From the sequence record MZ501067: DNA of 64,000 nt. One strand, written 5' to 3'. Source of the stretch: Escherichia phage FriedrichZschokke. Shown here piece after piece: positions 1-12,978 of the stretch. Position numbers and translations under genes: made by a program. Each line of letters begins with the position of its first letter. Positions within the stretch are counted from its first letter, which is position 1. The notes under the pieces are model-generated. The model saw only the letters and a list, made by a program, of their open reading frames with translations, did not search any database and was not told the origin of the DNA.

Positions 1-390
1 ACGAGCATGGCCATGATAATACCCACAATCCATGGCATCTTCGACGTATTGAATCAATTCATAGAACTGTTCACGGGTTAATTGATTGACTTTATCTACA
101 CAACGACGGTCATCTCTTTTTCGCATTGAACTCATACGAATAGTAGTATCATCGTCAATCATCCAGATTCGTTGACCTGCATACATATCAGTAATTGCTT
201 TACGAGTACCGGCAATTCCGTTTACATCATCAGGAATAGTTATAATTTTAGCTCTAGACCCATAGGCATCATAATAAGCTTTTTCTTCATGTTCACGCAC
301 TACAATATGGGGTTCATAATCAGTCGGAAACATATCAAGGGCAGAAACTGCCCCGACACGCTGATAACTTGGAATTACGAATTGAATCAT
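1..390 (-). CDS. Glycosyltransferase, GT-A-like, N-terminal ~130 codons only (3' end runs off the window)
   Basis: Reverse-strand ATG at 390-388 overlaps the gene 42 stop (ATGA). Translation MIQFVIPSYQRVG...RIWMIDDDTTI has a DxD motif typical of GT-A transferases; it does not resemble T4 beta-gt as I recall it. Confidence 0.5.
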   Translation of the reverse strand, partial: MIQFVIPSYQRVGAVSALDMFPTDYEPHIVVREHEEKAYYDAYGSRAKIITIPDDVNGIAGTRKAITDMYAGQRIWMIDDDTTIRMSSMRKRDDRRCVDKVNQLTREQFYELIQYVEDAMDCGYYHGHAR

Positions 391-1127
391 TTCCACTCAC
401 CTTTATAGTCTTTTTTCACAATATGAGTTTCGCCAGTATTCCACCAATGATCAACCAAGTAAAAATGACGAGAATATACATGAAGACTTCCGACATTCCA
501 TATAATAGAACCTGCTTTATACTGACGAGTTGAATCGCCTGCATTCAAATCAGATACTAATTTATCTAATACGTATTTTTGCCATGCATAATCATTACGG
601 AATCCGAAGACCACGTCATTTGAGCGCATGCTTACTACTGCATTGACTTTCTTATCACGAATCAGGTACTGTACTGTATTAGTACACATGAAATCTGACA
701 TACCATCTTTATTGTAGTCAAATTGCATGGATGGACGAGTATAAATCATGATACCACGTCGAGAATCAGAATTTTGACCAAGTTCAGCTAAACACATATC
801 ATACTGGGCATAGTTATCTTCTGACCAGATAGCCCAACCATAATTTGAGTTAATTTCACCTTTAGAAGATGCTACTTGTTGCCAAATCTTTGGTGTTTCA
901 CCTGGAATATCTTTAACAAACAAGCTCTTAGATTTATACCATTCAAGTTCGCGCTGAATGTATTCATCATTAAGAGCGCCAAAAATAAACGGTTCATCTG
1001 CTACAAATGATGCGCCAATAATTTCAATAGTTTTAACACCGGTTTTATCAACTACGAAATCTTTTTCTTTTAATGCAAGCCCCAAATGAAGACGGATTTC
1101 TTCAACTGTCATAGAGTCACTAATCAT
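387..1127 (-). CDS. 42: dCMP hydroxymethylase (thymidylate-synthase fold)
   Basis: 246 aa ORF; length and sequence match T4 gp42 as recalled; lies between imm and the glycosyltransferase as in T-even phages. Confidence 0.92.
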   Translation of the reverse strand: MISDSMTVEEIRLHLGLALKEKDFVVDKTGVKTIEIIGASFVADEPFIFGALNDEYIQRELEWYKSKSLFVKDIPGETPKIWQQVASSKGEINSNYGWAIWSEDNYAQYDMCLAELGQNSDSRRGIMIYTRPSMQFDYNKDGMSDFMCTNTVQYLIRDKKVNAVVSMRSNDVVFGFRNDYAWQKYVLDKLVSDLNAGDSTRQYKAGSIIWNVGSLHVYSRHFYLVDHWWNTGETHIVKKDYKGEWK

Positions 1128-1227
1128 TTAAACCTCAATTGATACATTCATATTTAACTTGTAACAGTAATAAACCCCAACCTAAAATAATAGTTGGAAT
1201 CATAAGAGGAACCGTTACACTATAGTA

Positions 1228-1262
1228 TATACTTATTATAATCATCAAGATTAAAAGCAACA
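1228..1262 (-). promoter_or_regulatory. Middle-type promoter (MotA box GCTTTT, 12 bp spacer, TATAAT) upstream of gene 42
   Basis: Minus strand reads GCTTTTaatcttgatgatTATAAT; the MotA-box/-10 spacing matches the T4 middle-promoter architecture. Confidence 0.4.
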
Positions 1263-1280
1263 CTGCTATAATTTTGCTTT

Positions 1281-1532
1281 TCATTCCTTCTCTCTGATGA
1301 TAATTACCTGATTTGGTTGTGCAGACTTTTTAGTTTCACCCGCAATTGACCAAATAAATGTAATAAACCAACCAATAATTGACCAGTTAAACAGTAAAGA
1401 TGTGAAAAAGATTCCTACTGTCGATTTTGACCCACGCATCAAGGCGATAAACCATGGAAGCATGTATATAATAATAGCCAACACACCTGAAACTAAAACC
1501 ATAAAAATTGAACCTGCTACTAAAGTTTCCAT
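1281..1532 (-). CDS. imm: Superinfection immunity membrane protein Imm
   Basis: 83 aa with two hydrophobic helices (METLVAGSIFMVLVSGVLAIIIYMLPWFIALM...); position immediately upstream of gene 42 as in T4. Confidence 0.8.
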   Translation of the reverse strand: METLVAGSIFMVLVSGVLAIIIYMLPWFIALMRGSKSTVGIFFTSLLFNWSIIGWFITFIWSIAGETKKSAQPNQVIIIREKE

Positions 1533-1539
1533 GTTTTCC

Positions 1540-1920
1540 TCACTTAGTCAAATTTTTTACACATGAATTATAAGAATTCACTACATACTCCATCGGAGCA
1601 TTTTTACCAGTACGCCATTGGTAATTATTAGCCCAATTAGCCCAAAGCTCGGCGCAGTAGTTTTCAATTTTTTCTTCGCGTGTAATTACATCCGAATTAC
1701 GATATGCTTGAGCAGATTCATCTGGACGAATAGCTTCGTCAAAATTCGCCTGCATTTGTTCGACTGTTTGCTTTGGAGCTTCTTTATAACACTTGACATT
1801 AGGATTATAAAATTTGCTTGAACAGTTTACAATTTTTCCTACATCAGACTGATTTACTACCGGTCCTTGAGCTACACAACCAGTAAGACCTAATGCAATA
1901 ACCAAAATAGCGATTTTCAT
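1540..1920 (-). CDS. Putative lipoprotein / secreted protein
   Basis: 126 aa; N-terminal signal sequence with lipobox-like LTGC (MKIAILVIALGLTGC...). Confidence 0.6.
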   Translation of the reverse strand: MKIAILVIALGLTGCVAQGPVVNQSDVGKIVNCSSKFYNPNVKCYKEAPKQTVEQMQANFDEAIRPDESAQAYRNSDVITREEKIENYCAELWANWANNYQWRTGKNAPMEYVVNSYNSCVKNLTK

Positions 1921-1930
1921 AATAATTTCC

Positions 1931-2179
1931 TCAAATGCAAGTAGTAATTACTCCAGTAGTGCTTATGCAGGTATTACCCATTTGCACACCTAAAGATCCA
2001 TTTGTATTCACATGAAGATTATCATCAATTTTAACTGATATTTTACCATTAGTGTGAATAACGGTGCTAGATTCAATCACAGGTTGAGTATCATTTTCAA
2101 CACTAACAAATGGAACTGCTGCTAATGCAACTAAACAAACTGCTAAGCATCCCATAACAATTTTCATTTTATTCTCCAA
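1931..2179 (-). CDS. Small secreted protein
   Basis: 82 aa with N-terminal signal peptide; GGAG Shine-Dalgarno upstream; early promoter directly upstream. Confidence 0.55.
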   Translation of the reverse strand: MENKMKIVMGCLAVCLVALAAVPFVSVENDTQPVIESSTVIHTNGKISVKIDDNLHVNTNGSLGVQMGNTCISTTGVITTCI

Positions 2180-2194
2180 ATCCGTATTAGTTGA

Positions 2195-2240
2195 TAGTTG
2201 TATAGTACCATGGAAGAACAGTCTTGTAAACAGTTTTGTG
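2195..2240 (-). promoter_or_regulatory. Early (sigma70-type) promoter with extended -10
   Basis: Minus strand: -35 TTTACA (2225-2230), 17 bp spacer, TGG-TACTAT -10 (2202-2210), A/T-rich UP-like tract upstream; one copy of a recurrent ~50 nt motif. Confidence 0.55.
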
Positions 2241-2311
2241 AAAATTTTTTAGGGAATTCTAAAGGTCCAGAATCATCTGTTTTTCATAAGTATAGATTTA
2301 TATTACTTGTA

Positions 2312-2335
2312 TGAAAAAGGGACCCGGAGGTCCCT
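2312..2335 (-). terminator. Intrinsic terminator downstream of gene 43
   Basis: Minus RNA agggacc-UCCG-ggucccu followed by UUUUUC. Confidence 0.6.
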
Positions 2336-2347
2336 AGATTTATTCTA

Positions 2348-5044
2348 TCAGCCAAACAGGAAGTCTAACGAAGCTTTTTCTTCATAGTCCATACCAGCCG
2401 ATTCACACATGCCTGCAAGCGGTTTAACAAACGATTTTTGGAACAAAGTTGAGTAGTCAATCCAAGACAGTACGTCAGAACGAATTTCTTTTGGAAGTTC
2501 TGTACCCGACGGCCAAGCAATGCATTTGTCACCAAATGGATTTCCTTCACGCAATGGAAGAACCATTACTTTATTTCCATCCAAAATTGGAGCTACACCT
2601 AAACCGCTAACAGCTCGACGATAAGTTAGCACACCACGAATATGGAACGGACATTTAAATCCTGGCCAACCTTTATCATCATATTTCGCTATATCGTTCG
2701 CAGTTTTTACTTCAGCAATAACTTTATAGTCAAGTTGACGATATTCTTTCTCGAAGTTCTTGTAATATTCTTGGACAGACTCTTCACCTTCCTGAAGAAT
2801 ACGACGAATACTTTCTTCGAGAGCTTCTTGAACCGCTTTAGGTGTTGAACTCTGCTGAGTTTCCATACCCATGATTTTTAGATGTGGTTCAGCAAAACGC
2901 TTATCTTCCATATCATAAACGTTCAGAGCATAACGCTTTTTCGCTTTCCAAAATCCACCAACACCCTTTGAACCGAGCGGAGGGCAAGAAATAGCTTCAC
3001 GGTCCATATGCATCAGATGCTCGCGGTTATTCATATAATCACATAACTCACGATATGCAACATCAATCATAGGTTCCATCTTTTTCTTACCGAACTGATT
3101 CATGAATTCAACTAAATCGTTCTGCTCTTTGAATCGGTCAAGACCAACTTTTTCAATAACTTTATCTACACAAACATATACCGAATCAGTATCACCTGCT
3201 GCGATGAAATCTTCGCCATTAGTTCCACATACTTTATTCAGATACTCATTAATTTTACGAGCAATCCACTGAATACCAACTTGGCCGAAAATTGTGATAG
3301 CAGTAGCATTTCGCAAATCATAGTAACGGAAATGAATATTACCAAGAGCACCGTAAAGGCTGTTAATAAGAATTTTACGGTTCAGCTGATTTGTGTTAGC
3401 AAGTGTAGCCGCTTTTTCACATTCTTCAATCAAACTATTGAGAACAGATTCAGTATAATTCGATAGTTCATTTAAGAAATCATCACTGAACTTAACATAT
3501 CGTTCAACTTCAGGTTTAGTTGAACAAGACCCTGCGCCTTTCATAATAATCTTTTTAATAGCTTCGGCATTCATTTCTTCAGCGAACATTTTCTTTTTCC
3601 AATCTTTACGCTGGAAAAATACTTTAGCGATTTCCTTTGGAATGATACCTTCTTGATGCTTATCATACATCCATCCATTCGGAGAACAAGAATATTCATC
3701 ACTCGGTTTAGGAGCTGTTCCTGCGATATATTCATGAATTGGATGAACTTTAAACTGACCACGAATAGTCTCAGGACTAATGTTAACCTGACGAATAATG
3801 CTCGGATACAGAGACGTCAAGTCAAAACTCATAATATATCGACGAGCAATTGGTTTAGGTTCAAATACGAATGCACCTGGAAAACTTTGTTTAACGTGCG
3901 AACCTTGTTGAGGAATAACCTTATGTTCACCTTTCAATGAGTTAAAAATAATAGCATCCCAAGTTTTAATAGGACTCATTACACCAGAAAAAGGCATTTT
4001 AGCGTAATAAGACATACTTAAAACTAGATCGATAAACCCGCGGATTTTATCAATTGCTTGAACTGATTCTACGTCAATGATGTTATAACTAATGTATCGT
4101 TGATGATTAGTCTCACGAAGTTTATTAATAGGACCATCATACGGTAATTTACCTTTTTTGGTTTCATGTTGAGCAACTGATTCCAAAGAGAATGACGGCA
4201 AATTAGTAAAAGCGAATTTCTTGTACAAATCTAAATAATCAAGAATAGATACGCCATCAATAGAATAAATTTCTTTGCTACCGTACATATTTTGAATTAG
4301 TTTAGATTTTACTCGACCGATTGGAGAGAAACGTTTCATACTACGTTCACCGAGAACCATTTTAACGCGATTCATGATATACGGAACGTCAAATCCCTCA
4401 ATATTCCAACCAGTAAAAATAGCAGGTCGTTTCTGTTCCCAAAGATTAATATATTCCATGAGCATATCACGCTCATTATCGAATGGCATATAAATTACTC
4501 GGTCAAGAATTTCTTGAGGAACTTCATCACCACCTTCACAGTCAAGCTTAGCAGCTAACTTTGCATCCCATTTTGATACTGAACCGTACATTGAATTCAA
4601 AAGGTCGAAAACATAAAAACGATCATCAATTGAATCGTAATGAGTGATAGCATCAATTTCATATTCAGCTTTCATTGGGTCAGGAAATTTATCACCAGTA
4701 ACCTCAATGTCACAGTTAGCTACACGAACAAATTTTCGGTCATAAACAATTTCTGAACCGTATGTATCACTGATATAAGCGAGTTTAAAATCGTTCATAC
4801 CGAGAGCTTCGAGACCGATGTCTTCCATTCGTTTCATCCAATCTCGAGCATCTTTCATTGATGGAAATTTTTGAGGAGCGCAGTTTTTACCATAGATGTC
4901 TTTGTACTTTGACTCTTCCTTACAATGCCTAAACATAGTTGGAAGATATTCTACTTCACGAGTACGTTCCTTTCCGTTTTCATCAATATAACGTTCAACA
5001 ATGTTATTTCCGACTGTTTCGATAGAGATATAAAATTCTTTCAT
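2348..5044 (-). CDS. 43: DNA polymerase (family B)
   Basis: 898 aa ORF; length and sequence match T4 gp43 as recalled; synteny with regA-62-44-45. Confidence 0.97.
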   Translation of the reverse strand: MKEFYISIETVGNNIVERYIDENGKERTREVEYLPTMFRHCKEESKYKDIYGKNCAPQKFPSMKDARDWMKRMEDIGLEALGMNDFKLAYISDTYGSEIVYDRKFVRVANCDIEVTGDKFPDPMKAEYEIDAITHYDSIDDRFYVFDLLNSMYGSVSKWDAKLAAKLDCEGGDEVPQEILDRVIYMPFDNERDMLMEYINLWEQKRPAIFTGWNIEGFDVPYIMNRVKMVLGERSMKRFSPIGRVKSKLIQNMYGSKEIYSIDGVSILDYLDLYKKFAFTNLPSFSLESVAQHETKKGKLPYDGPINKLRETNHQRYISYNIIDVESVQAIDKIRGFIDLVLSMSYYAKMPFSGVMSPIKTWDAIIFNSLKGEHKVIPQQGSHVKQSFPGAFVFEPKPIARRYIMSFDLTSLYPSIIRQVNISPETIRGQFKVHPIHEYIAGTAPKPSDEYSCSPNGWMYDKHQEGIIPKEIAKVFFQRKDWKKKMFAEEMNAEAIKKIIMKGAGSCSTKPEVERYVKFSDDFLNELSNYTESVLNSLIEECEKAATLANTNQLNRKILINSLYGALGNIHFRYYDLRNATAITIFGQVGIQWIARKINEYLNKVCGTNGEDFIAAGDTDSVYVCVDKVIEKVGLDRFKEQNDLVEFMNQFGKKKMEPMIDVAYRELCDYMNNREHLMHMDREAISCPPLGSKGVGGFWKAKKRYALNVYDMEDKRFAEPHLKIMGMETQQSSTPKAVQEALEESIRRILQEGEESVQEYYKNFEKEYRQLDYKVIAEVKTANDIAKYDDKGWPGFKCPFHIRGVLTYRRAVSGLGVAPILDGNKVMVLPLREGNPFGDKCIAWPSGTELPKEIRSDVLSWIDYSTLFQKSFVKPLAGMCESAGMDYEEKASLDFLFG

Positions 5045-5082
5045 AGATATTCCTTAGTTTATAGCCCGAGTTATTAGGCTCT
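5045..5082 (-). promoter_or_regulatory. Gene 43 translational operator (hairpin plus Shine-Dalgarno)
   Basis: mRNA reads AGCC-UAAUAACUC-GGGCU (5 bp stem, 8 nt loop) then AUAAACUAAGGAAUAUCUAUG; matches the gp43 autoregulatory operator as I recall it. Confidence 0.55.
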
Positions 5083-5100
5083 TGATATATTATACTCCAA

Positions 5101-5122
5101 ATAAGGGGCCGAAGCCCCTTGC
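5101..5122 (-). terminator. Hairpin / weak intrinsic terminator between regA and 43
   Basis: Minus RNA aaggggc-UUCG-gccccuu followed by AUUUGG. Confidence 0.45.
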
Positions 5123-5491
5123 TTAATTACCAATCGTATATTTAGGAACGAGTTTCCATTCATGTTTTTGTTTAAAAGAAATAACTCGGAAGTTATTAGT
5201 TAAATCTTTCATAAAAGTTCTTTGACCAGGAACAATTTCAATCAGTCCCCAATCTTCTAACAGCCATGCAATCGAATCACGACGAACTTCATCTTCTTCT
5301 GTCATTTCAACTTGGCGACCATCCATACGAAGCATTTCTTTAAAATGAACGATATAGTATAGTCCTTTTTTCTGAAGAATATGACAGGACTGATACAGAA
5401 CTTTATCTTTATTATTAGCAATTCCCATACGAGTCAAAGTTTCTTTTACTTTCAGAAAATCTTCAGGTTTTTTAAGAGTAATTTCAATCAT
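5123..5491 (-). CDS. regA: Translational repressor RegA
   Basis: 122 aa; position between 62 and 43; matches T4 RegA length and sequence as recalled. Confidence 0.9.
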   Translation of the reverse strand: MIEITLKKPEDFLKVKETLTRMGIANNKDKVLYQSCHILQKKGLYYIVHFKEMLRMDGRQVEMTEEDEVRRDSIAWLLEDWGLIEIVPGQRTFMKDLTNNFRVISFKQKHEWKLVPKYTIGN

Positions 5492-11758: not shown

Positions 11759-11782
11759 TAAAGGGCCGAAGCCCTTTATTTT
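11759..11782 (-). terminator. Palindromic hairpin / terminator after alpha-gt
   Basis: aaagggc-cgaa-gcccttt is a perfect palindrome with T-rich flanks on both strands. Confidence 0.5.
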
Positions 11783-12978
11783 GTAATAATGTCAAACTGT
11801 TCTTTAAAGCAGAAGCTTGAATCTTGATGTTGATACAAAAATTCATACGCTTTTTCTCGCTCACGGTCATAAAGAGCTCGGTCAGATGACAGTTCTTTAA
11901 TACGCTCGAATGTTGATTCCATATCATTTTCATCAAACCAAATGATACCGCTATCATGCGAGGTCAAAGGAGTATTATCAACACGGAATTTTAAATTTTC
12001 GCCAGTAGATTTCCAAAATACCGGAATTGTTCCACATGCACCAAGCTCAAGATGAGTATATTCTAAAGAGCGCTGTAGATATTTTTTATCCAACTTACTC
12101 AACTGATAACCAAAACCGGATTTACTCATACGTTCAAGCATTTCGCTATTTACATAACGGTCAAGAATTTGCGTTGGCAAATTAGGAGCAATTTTAATTT
12201 GGTCTACTTGATGAAGACGATAATACTCGTATGGAATTCCTTTTTCTTTAATAGGAATGAACGCTGGAGAACGTTCCAGACCTTCCATAATAGTACTTAG
12301 TCCTGCAGGTTTAAGATGTTTTTCATGAAAATCAAACATCTGATAAAAACCTTTCCATGTAGTCGTACGACCAATCCAACGGTTGATATTCATGTTAATT
12401 TCAGAAACATCTTTCCAGTAGGTTGACCGAACCTTCGCAATATCCATAGGAGGCTGAAAGTTATATACTGTCGGTGCTTCTTCAATATCATCAAACAGAG
12501 AAACTGTTTCAGGATACCATTCTTTCATCAGAACTTTATTAAAATCACCATTATCAGAATGGCTAAAAATAACATCAGCTCGACGAACAGTTTCTTCTAA
12601 TCCCAAATTTCGGCGCAAAGAAAGAGAAGAATGGTCATGTTGATAAACTACAACACGAACAGAAGGTTTAATGTTATCAATAATTTTTTTATAGTTATTA
12701 ATAGTGTCTTCTTCAACCGAAGTAGCAGGAACTGAATTGATAATTAGAATATCACAATCATTTACCAGCTTAAGTGTTTTATCATATTCTTTTGCCAATA
12801 AAACCGGAATTGAAAATGATTTATAATCATGCGCGCAATTACGAGTAAATGATTTATCTTTAGCATAAACCAAAGTTACTTCATGACCATTTTTAATAAA
12901 CCAATCACGTTGCTCGAGTGAGAATTTTGTTACACCACAACCTTCAAGACCTCGAGCCATAAAAATACATACTTTCAT
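11776..12978 (-). CDS. agt: DNA alpha-glucosyltransferase
   Basis: 400 aa; sequence and position (after 47) match T-even alpha-gt. Confidence 0.9.
   Translation of the reverse strand: MKVCIFMARGLEGCGVTKFSLEQRDWFIKNGHEVTLVYAKDKSFTRNCAHDYKSFSIPVLLAKEYDKTLKLVNDCDILIINSVPATSVEEDTINNYKKIIDNIKPSVRVVVYQHDHSSLSLRRNLGLEETVRRADVIFSHSDNGDFNKVLMKEWYPETVSLFDDIEEAPTVYNFQPPMDIAKVRSTYWKDVSEINMNINRWIGRTTTWKGFYQMFDFHEKHLKPAGLSTIMEGLERSPAFIPIKEKGIPYEYYRLHQVDQIKIAPNLPTQILDRYVNSEMLERMSKSGFGYQLSKLDKKYLQRSLEYTHLELGACGTIPVFWKSTGENLKFRVDNTPLTSHDSGIIWFDENDMESTFERIKELSSDRALYDREREKAYEFLYQHQDSSFCFKEQFDIITK

What the first reader, a model, noticed from the sequence alone, without database searches (positions are those of the whole stretch)
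1..390. GT-A glycosyltransferase where T4 carries beta-glucosyltransferase
The gene immediately downstream of gene 42 starts MIQFVIPSYQRVG... and has a DxD motif (IDDDTT), which marks a GT-A fold. T4 beta-gt is a GT-B enzyme with a different N-terminus as I recall it. Together with the alpha-gt at 11776-12978, this suggests a T2/T6-style DNA glucosylation scheme (alpha-glucosylation plus a second sugar added by a beta-glucosyl-HMC-alpha-glucosyl transferase) rather than T4's. The gene is truncated by the window edge.
Basis: partly seen in the sequence, partly recalled or inferred. Interest (0 to 1): 0.5.

Follow-up and report, generated by a model that had tools for sequence, protein, structure and literature searches.

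The report
T2/T6-type second-sugar DNA glucosyltransferase gene

Summary
Observation confirmed. Window 390..1 (minus strand) holds the first 130 codons (MIQFVIPSYQRVG…WMIDDDTT…) of a gene that overlaps the stop of gene 42 by 4 nt (ATGA) and runs off the window edge.

Interpretation supported.
- The fragment is 130/130 identical to the 280-aa 'hmC beta-alpha-glucosyltransferase ba-gt' of phages FriedrichMiescher (Bas39) and TB37. It is 129/130 identical to T2 and 126/130 to T6.
- It matches Pfam PF20691 (TAGT) above the gathering score and PHROG 842 at E = 3e-41. It has no similarity to T4 beta-gt.
- The window also encodes gp42 (97% identical to T4) and an alpha-gt (99.5% identical to T2).
- No T4-type beta-gt was found in the window or in the flanking parts of the closest genome.

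Published HPLC/MS shows that TB37 DNA is about 2/3 gentiobiosyl-hmC, about 1/3 hmC, with only a trace of alpha-glucosyl-hmC. TB37 has an identical ba-gt and a 99.8%-identical alpha-gt, so this phage is probably T6-like.

The gene, its GT-A fold and the alpha-gt + TAGT pairing are all already published; T4's alpha + beta pair is the rare case. Verdict: already known, low interest.

The parts
1..390 (-). 5' part (codons 1-130 of 280) of the beta-alpha-glucosyltransferase gene (ba-gt / ggt; Pfam TAGT), cut by the window edge
   Evidence: 100% DNA identity to MZ501066 ba-gt. 130/130 aa identical to Bas39 and TB37, 129/130 to T2, 126/130 to T6.
148..156 (-). D79-D80-D81, the DxD metal / UDP-sugar-binding motif of the GT-A fold
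202..219 (-). G58-I-A-G-T-R63, conserved GT2-like loop with invariant G58, I59, T62 and R63, preceding the DxD strand
   Evidence: Invariant columns in A2. A role in donor binding is inferred from GT2-family knowledge and was not tested.
358..372 (-). P7-S-Y-Q-R11, the N-terminal 'PxYxR' strand-loop typical of GT2/GT-A nucleotide-binding sites. R11 is invariant in the family and is H in T2.
387..390 (-). ATGA overlap of the gene 42 stop and the ba-gt start (suggests translational coupling); SD-like AAGGTGAG at 403..396
387..1127 (-). Gene 42, dCMP hydroxymethylase, which makes the hmC that is later glucosylated
   Evidence: Pfam Thymidylat_synt. 97% identical to T4 gp42.
11776..12978 (-). alpha-glucosyltransferase (a-gt), which makes the alpha-glucosyl-hmC acceptor for ba-gt
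   Evidence: Pfam AGT 787.6 bits. Identity 99.5% to T2, 99.8% to TB37, 91.5% to T4.

Best explanation
The window comes from a Tequatrovirus (a T-even coliphage close to FriedrichMiescher/teqdroes/TB37). Bases 390..1 are the first 130 codons of ba-gt (also called ggt, beta-glucosyl-HMC-alpha-glucosyltransferase, Pfam TAGT).

The pathway is as follows. gp42 makes 5-hm-dCMP, which is incorporated during replication. The GT-B alpha-gt puts an alpha-linked glucose on hmC in DNA. This GT-A enzyme then uses UDP-glucose to add a second glucose in beta-1,6 linkage to that glucose, giving gentiobiosyl-hmC.

The mechanism is inferred, not shown here. It is expected to be an inverting GT-A. D79-D81 would hold the divalent metal and the UDP pyrophosphate. 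The PSYQR and GIAGTR loops would bind the nucleotide. The invariant E174-D175 ('ED') pair, which lies beyond the window edge, would supply the catalytic base for the glucose 6-OH.

The gene is probably co-transcribed and translationally coupled with gene 42 (ATGA overlap). The virion DNA is most likely T6-like: about 2/3 gentiobiosyl-hmC, about 1/3 bare hmC, little alpha-monoglucosyl-hmC and no beta-glucosyl-hmC.
For: Identity and position:
- 100% DNA identity over window 1-1130 to MZ501066, where the full 280-aa CDS is annotated 'hmC beta-alpha-glucosyltransferase ba-gt'.
- 129/130 and 126/130 aa identical to the T2 and T6 enzymes, in the same position after gene 42.

Family and fold:
- PHROG 842 E = 3e-41. 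Pfam PF20691 above the gathering score for the fragment, and covering the whole profile for the full-length protein.
- Conserved R...DDD...ED(M)Y residues fit the phage GT-A active-site motif R...DDD...EDY/F reported in bioRxiv 10.1101/2023.12.21.572611.

Partner genes:
- alpha-gt and gp42 are present in the window.
- T4 beta-gt finds nothing by tblastn in the window or in Bas39 positions 1-98999 and 161000-169509.

Function of the orthologues:
- Deleting T6 ba-gt leaves only alpha-glucosyl-hmC (PMC11078745; PMC13160076).
- TB37, with an identical ba-gt protein and a 99.8%-identical alpha-gt, has about 2/3 alpha-gentiobiosyl-mdC, about 1/3 hmdC, only a low background of alpha-monoglucosyl-mdC and no detectable beta-glucosyl-mdC by HPLC/MS (PMC13390438).
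Against: - Only 130 of 280 codons are in the window. The C-terminal 150 codons, including the putative catalytic ED motif, are unseen for this particular phage.
- The window is not identical to any record (best 98.5% over 25 kb).
- The rest of this phage's genome is unknown, so the absence of a beta-gt elsewhere rests on a close relative.
- The extent of gentiobiosylation cannot be read from sequence. T2 has a 99%-identical enzyme yet only about 5% gentiobiosyl-hmC.
- The AF2 model is of moderate confidence (mean pLDDT 72; residues 130-140 and 189-211 are below 50).
- No catalytic residue was tested.
Confidence: 0.9

Rival explanations
1. The gene is present, but in this phage it is inactive or weakly active (disrupted beyond the window edge, or hypomorphic as in T2). 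The DNA would then be mostly alpha-monoglucosyl-hmC (T2-like) rather than gentiobiosyl-rich (T6-like).
For: The 3' 150 codons are outside the window. T2 has a 99%-identical enzyme but about 5% gentiobiosyl-hmC (PMC6024577). Laboratory T6 records carry lesions in this gene: TAG at codon 10 in MH550421 and DDD->DD in AP018814. So inactivating changes do occur.
Against: The window fragment has the family-consensus residues at all invariant positions, including R11, where T2 has H. It is 100% identical in DNA to Bas39 over this stretch. TB37, with the identical protein, has about 2/3 gentiobiosyl-hmC.
Confidence: 0.1
2. It is a TAGT-type enzyme that glycosylates bare hmC directly, as the TET-associated GT-A enzymes and JGT act on their bases, rather than extending alpha-glucosyl-hmC.
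For: It belongs to Pfam TAGT, whose other members glycosylate 5hmC directly (bioRxiv 10.1101/2023.12.21.572611). Solitary TAGT homologues exist in phages that have no alpha- or beta-gt (PMC13216743).
Against: In T6, deleting ba-gt converts gentiobiosyl-hmC to alpha-glucosyl-hmC. About 25-33% of hmC stays bare in T2, T6 and TB37 despite this enzyme. No beta-monoglucosyl-hmC was detected in the Durham Tequatrovirus phages, which encode alpha-gt and this TAGT.
Confidence: 0.04
3. It is a glycosyltransferase for a non-DNA substrate (LPS, protein or teichoic-acid-like), and its place next to gene 42 is a coincidence.
Against: Near-identity to the genetically characterised T2/T6 enzyme. Conserved linkage to gene 42 in at least 521 phage records. 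The Pfam family is defined by association with DNA-base modification genes.
Confidence: 0.01
4. It is a diverged T4-type beta-glucosyltransferase (GT-B) that adds a beta-linked first glucose to hmC.
For: It occupies the position syntenic with T4 b-gt, and several GenBank records label it 'b-gt' or 'putative beta-glucosyltransferase'.
Against: No sequence similarity to T4 beta-gt. GT-A rather than GT-B fold. Different length (280 vs 351 aa). Homology with T4 breaks off within the last roughly 5 codons of gene 42.
Confidence: 0.01

Closest known systems
T2/T6 beta-glucosyl-HMC-alpha-glucosyltransferase (ba-gt / ggt; UniProt Q06717 and Q06718 as cited in PMC6024577)
   Same: 129/130 (T2) and 126/130 (T6) identical residues over the part in the window. 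Same position directly after gene 42 with the same ATGA overlap. Same partner genes (gene 42, alpha-gt)..
   Different: The window has R11 where T2 has H, and Y40/D55/R106 where T6 has N/G/H. The 3' 150 codons are not in the window.
ba-gt of Escherichia phages FriedrichMiescher (Bas39, MZ501066) and vB_Eco_TB37 (OZ035850)
   Same: 130/130 identical protein. 390/390 identical DNA for Bas39. The neighbouring genes are in the same order and orientation. TB37 DNA has been chemically shown to carry gentiobiosyl-hmC.
   Different: The window as a whole is only 98.4-98.5% identical to these genomes over 25 kb and differs in length by about 1.6 kb further on. It is therefore a different isolate.
Pfam PF20691 TAGT (TET-associated glycosyltransferases) and trypanosome JGT: GT-A enzymes that glycosylate modified bases in DNA
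   Same: Family membership by HMM. GT-A fold. R...DDD...ED-aromatic motif.
   Different: TET-associated members and JGT put the first sugar on the hydroxymethyl base. This enzyme extends an existing alpha-glucose. It is linked to a thymidylate-synthase-like hydroxymethylase (pre-replicative hmC), not to a TET/5mYOX enzyme.
T4 beta-glucosyltransferase (b-gt, GT-B, Pfam PF09198)
   Same: Syntenic slot between uvsX and gene 42. Uses UDP-glucose. Makes a beta linkage. Acts on phage hmC DNA after replication.
   Different: Unrelated sequence and fold. Its acceptor is bare hmC rather than alpha-glucosyl-hmC. In T4 the slot also holds the homing endonuclease gene segA.

Membership tests
T2/T6 beta-glucosyl-HMC-alpha-glucosyltransferase (ba-gt) | Sequence orthology to the T2 and T6 enzymes | tested here: met
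   129/130 (T2) and 126/130 (T6) identical. PHROG 842 E = 3.3e-41.
T2/T6 beta-glucosyl-HMC-alpha-glucosyltransferase (ba-gt) | Located immediately downstream of gene 42, in the slot between gene 42 and uvsX | tested here: met
   ATGA overlap with gene 42 in the window. The uvsX side lies outside the window but is seen in Bas39, TB37, T2 and T6.
T2/T6 beta-glucosyl-HMC-alpha-glucosyltransferase (ba-gt) | Co-occurrence with the hmC pathway and an alpha-gt that makes the acceptor, with no T4-type beta-gt | tested here: met
   gp42 and alpha-gt are in the window. tblastn with T4 beta-gt finds nothing in the window or in the remaining parts of Bas39. The rest of this exact phage's genome is not available.
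T2/T6 beta-glucosyl-HMC-alpha-glucosyltransferase (ba-gt) | Intact full-length ORF (280 aa) including the C-terminal half with the conserved ED motif | not testable with these tools
   The window ends at codon 130. The gene is intact in the closest relatives.
T2/T6 beta-glucosyl-HMC-alpha-glucosyltransferase (ba-gt) | Transfers glucose from UDP-Glc in beta-1,6 linkage onto alpha-glucosyl-hmC in DNA (gentiobiosyl-hmC product) | not testable with these tools
   Literature only: the T6 ba-gt deletion (PMC11078745) and HPLC/MS of TB37, which has the identical protein (PMC13390438).
Pfam PF20691 TAGT / GT-A fold glycosyltransferases | HMM score above the Pfam gathering threshold | tested here: met
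   Fragment 31.7 bits and full-length relative 38.9 bits, against a cut-off of 27.5. Profile positions 2-205 of 205 are covered.
Pfam PF20691 TAGT / GT-A fold glycosyltransferases | GT-A (nucleotide-diphospho-sugar transferase) fold | tested here: met
Pfam PF20691 TAGT / GT-A fold glycosyltransferases | DxD motif at the end of the fourth strand, conserved across the family | tested here: met
   D79-D80-D81 are invariant in 9 homologues down to 28% identity. They follow predicted strand E74-77.
T4 beta-glucosyltransferase (GT-B, PF09198) | Sequence similarity to T4 b-gt / GT-B two-Rossmann-domain fold | tested here: not met
   Best BLASTP E = 2.2. No PF09198 hit. GT-A fold.

The most novel reading that the evidence does not exclude
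The allele in this window (R11; P251 in its identical relatives) is the fully active, wild-type form of ba-gt and gives T6-like DNA with about 2/3 gentiobiosyl-hmC. On this reading, the textbook T2 phenotype (only about 5% gentiobiosyl-hmC) would be caused by a hypomorphic T2 allele carrying R11H and P251S, rather than by any regulatory or alpha-gt difference. R11 is invariant and P251 is conserved in 8 of 9 homologues. T2's alpha-gt is 99.5-99.8% identical to those of the window phage and TB37.
Probability: 0.3. Interest if true: 0.3.

Novelty: already known. Interest (0 to 1): 0.08.

Why it matters
The type of sugar on hmC decides which host defences a T-even phage escapes. Examples are Brig1 and Brig3/BapA glycosylases, GmrSD/BrxU type IV enzymes, CRISPR-Cas and McrBC. 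Knowing that this phage has alpha-gt + ba-gt predicts gentiobiosyl-hmC DNA. From the published work on T6, that implies DNA resistant to Brig1 in vitro, although T6 is still restricted by Brig1 in vivo, and sugars that BapA cannot remove. For annotation, the finding shows that labels such as 'b-gt' or 'beta-glucosyltransferase' in many GenBank records at this locus are wrong. Nothing here is new biology: the gene, its fold, its distribution and the DNA chemistry of a phage with the identical protein are all published.

Tried and rejected
- Big-database protein search with the 130-aa fragment returned only 4 partial proteins. Repeating it with the full-length Bas39 protein gave the full-length homologues needed for modelling.
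- Sequence searches of the PDB found nothing significant, with a single sequence or with a profile. The best hit was E = 0.25 to the GT2 enzyme AvpGT. It is consistent with the fold result but not evidence by itself.
- NCBIfam has no model for this protein.
- The sigma-70 promoter scan of 1-2400 was not above shuffles (14 found against 10.7 +/- 3.5 expected), so no promoter is claimed.
- I first assumed the window was FriedrichMiescher itself and stitched a 'genome' from its record and the window. One search showed the window is only about 99.4% identical beyond the first 1.1 kb and about 1.6 kb shorter further on. The beta-gt absence test therefore covers the window plus a relative's flanks, not the true genome.
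- The plus-strand ORFs overlapping the region (172-408 and 369-533, TTG starts) were dismissed as antisense artefacts of the AT-rich coding sequence.
- A T4-type beta-gt and a non-DNA glycosyltransferase were considered and rejected.

Full report
**1. What is in the sequence**

On the minus strand, window 390..1 reads as 130 sense codons with no stop. It starts MIQFVIPSYQRVG and contains WMIDDDTT. D79-D81 lie at window 156..148.

The ATG at 390..388 overlaps the TGA of the 246-aa ORF at 387-1127. That ORF is 97% identical to T4 gp42, the dCMP hydroxymethylase. An SD-like AAGGTGAG sits 6 nt upstream of the ATG. The ORF runs off the window.

**2. Where the window comes from**

Megablast of 1-1130 finds 549 phage records, nearly all Tequatrovirus (T-even) phages. 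In 521 of them the match covers at least 80% of the query, that is, both gene 42 and this gene. The best is Escherichia phage FriedrichMiescher (BASEL Bas39, MZ501066), at 100% over 1-1130.

Over 25 kb the best identity is only 98.5%. The register with Bas39 also shifts by about 1.6 kb further along. The window is therefore a related but different isolate.

In Bas39 the gene is an 843-nt CDS (280 aa) annotated 'hmC beta-alpha-glucosyltransferase ba-gt'. It lies between gene 42 and uvsX.

**3. Identity of the protein**

| Comparison | Identity to the window fragment |
|---|---|
| Bas39 ba-gt | 130/130 |
| TB37 ba-gt | 130/130 |
| T2 (two independent records) | 129/130; only R11H in this part, plus P251S later |
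| T6 | 126/130 |

- It hits PHROG 842 'beta-glucosyl-HMC-alpha-glucosyltransferase' at 3.3e-41.
- It hits Pfam PF20691 TAGT at 31.7 bits (cut-off 27.5). The full-length Bas39 protein covers the whole TAGT profile at 38.9 bits.
- T4 carries segA and b-gt in the same slot. T4 b-gt (351 aa, MKIAIINMG...) shows no similarity; the best E is 2.2.
- DNA homology between T4 and the window ends within the last roughly 5 codons of gene 42. This marks the edge of the exchanged cassette.

**4. Fold**

There is no solved relative by sequence.

Nine full-length homologues (99-28% identity) were aligned and modelled. The model has pLDDT 72 and pTM 0.75, with residues 1-90 mostly above 85.

These residues are invariant across the family:
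- P7, S8, Y9 and R11
- G58, I59, T62 and R63
- D79, D80 and D81
- D175 and Y177

This fits the R...DDD...EDY/F motif described for phage GT-A DNA glycosyltransferases (10.1101/2023.12.21.572611).

A 2026 paper independently places the T6 enzyme in PF20691 and assigns it the GT-A fold, as sister to GT2 (PMC13216743).

**5. The glucosylation scheme**

The window also encodes an alpha-gt (Pfam AGT, 787.6 bits). It is 99.5% identical to T2's, 99.8% to TB37's and 91.5% to T4's.

tblastn with T4 b-gt finds nothing in the window or in the Bas39 segments that flank it.

Published evidence:
- T2 and T6 make gentiobiosyl-hmC with ba-gt (PMC6024577).
- Deleting ba-gt in T6 leaves only alpha-glucosyl-hmC (PMC11078745; PMC13160076).
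- Twelve of fourteen T4-like RB phages have a-gt + ba-gt.
- Only 6 of 753 glucosyltransferase-encoding phage genomes have T4's alpha + beta pair.
- HPLC/MS of Durham phages found TB37 (together with Some, NR1, QOTSP and three other Tequatrovirus phages) to have about 1/3 hm-dC, about 2/3 alpha-gentiobiosyl-mdC and only a low background of alpha-glucosyl-mdC. No beta-glucosyl form was detected (PMC13390438).

TB37's ba-gt is 280/280 identical to Bas39's and identical to the window fragment. The most likely DNA chemistry of the window phage is therefore T6-like.

**6. Mechanism**

Shown here: gene identity, family, fold, conserved motifs and partner genes.

Shown in the literature for orthologues: the requirement of ba-gt for the second glucose, and the product.

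Inferred:
- An inverting GT-A mechanism, with D79-D81 binding the metal and UDP-Glc.
- E174/D175 (outside the window) acting as the catalytic base on the 6-OH of the alpha-glucose.
- Co-transcription and translational coupling with gene 42, from the ATGA overlap.

**7. Limits**

- Only 46% of the gene is in the window.
- The rest of this phage's genome is unseen.
- The proportion of gentiobiosylation cannot be read from sequence.

**8. Verdict**

The feature is already known: it is annotated in hundreds of genomes and characterised genetically and chemically. It is also the majority arrangement in the genus. Interest is low.

The only mildly new point arose in passing. T2's enzyme differs from the TB37/Bas39/window consensus only at R11H (a family-invariant residue) and P251S (conserved in 8 of 9 homologues), while its alpha-gt is nearly identical. 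This offers a simple, testable explanation for T2's low gentiobiose content.

Noticed in passing
L004:3283-4125 and L008:3286-4128 (T2 ba-gt), compared with window 358-360 (codon R11): Both T2 records differ from the window/Bas39/TB37 protein only by R11H and P251S. R11 is invariant and P251 is conserved in 8 of 9 homologues down to 28% identity. T2's alpha-gt is 99.5-99.8% identical to those of the window phage and TB37. Yet T2 has about 5% gentiobiosyl-hmC against about 2/3 in TB37. T2's ba-gt may be a hypomorph.
   Followed up: partly
L002:3138-3980 (T6 MH550421) and L013:921-1760 (T6 AP018814): The two T6 records each carry a different oddity in ba-gt. MH550421 has TAG at codon 10, so the annotated start is M20, which would remove the first beta-strand. 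AP018814 has Q10 intact but a one-codon deletion that turns DDD into DD. Only MH550421 has the TAG among 487 matching records. These may be laboratory-stock mutations or sequencing errors. Either is odd for the phage known for 72% gentiobiosyl-hmC.
   Followed up: partly
window 391-405 (minus strand), last ~5 codons of gene 42: DNA homology between T4 and the window/T2 stops abruptly after ...AAAAAAGAYTAT. The C-terminus of gp42 differs (KGEWK in the window; VGKY... in T4). This is the right-hand junction of the ba-gt versus segA + b-gt cassette swap.
   Followed up: partly
L003:4571-5236 (T4 segA) and L010:4886-5680 (T4 mobB): In T4 each glucosyltransferase gene has a homing-endonuclease gene beside it: segA beside b-gt and mobB beside a-gt. 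Both are absent at the corresponding places in TB37, T2 and T6; mobB is also absent in the window, and segA in Bas39. This hints that homing endonucleases helped move or fix the T4-specific glucosyltransferase alleles.
   Followed up: no
window 1-64000 vs MZ501066: The window is 100% identical to FriedrichMiescher over 1-1130, but 99.45% over 1-5124 and 98.5% over 25 kb, and about 1.6 kb shorter somewhere between 5124 and 61065. It is a mosaic relative that is not in the phage collection.
   Followed up: partly
window 2318-2335 (minus strand): A strong terminator-like hairpin, AGGGACCTCCGGGTCCCT followed by TTTTT, lies 13 nt after the stop of gene 43 (DNA polymerase, 2348-5044). It is palindromic, so it also scores on the plus strand.
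   Followed up: no
window 338-354 (minus strand), codons 13-18 of ba-gt: A GC-rich hairpin, GGGGCAGTTTCTGCCCT, lies inside the otherwise AT-rich coding sequence. It is conserved in T2 and T6. No function is evident and it may be chance.
   Followed up: no
table (GenBank annotations at this locus): Many records label this gene 'b-gt', 'putative beta-glucosyltransferase', 'glucosyl transferase' or 'hypothetical protein', and label gene 42 'thymidylate synthase'. These are annotation errors that could mislead automated prediction of DNA modification type.
   Followed up: no
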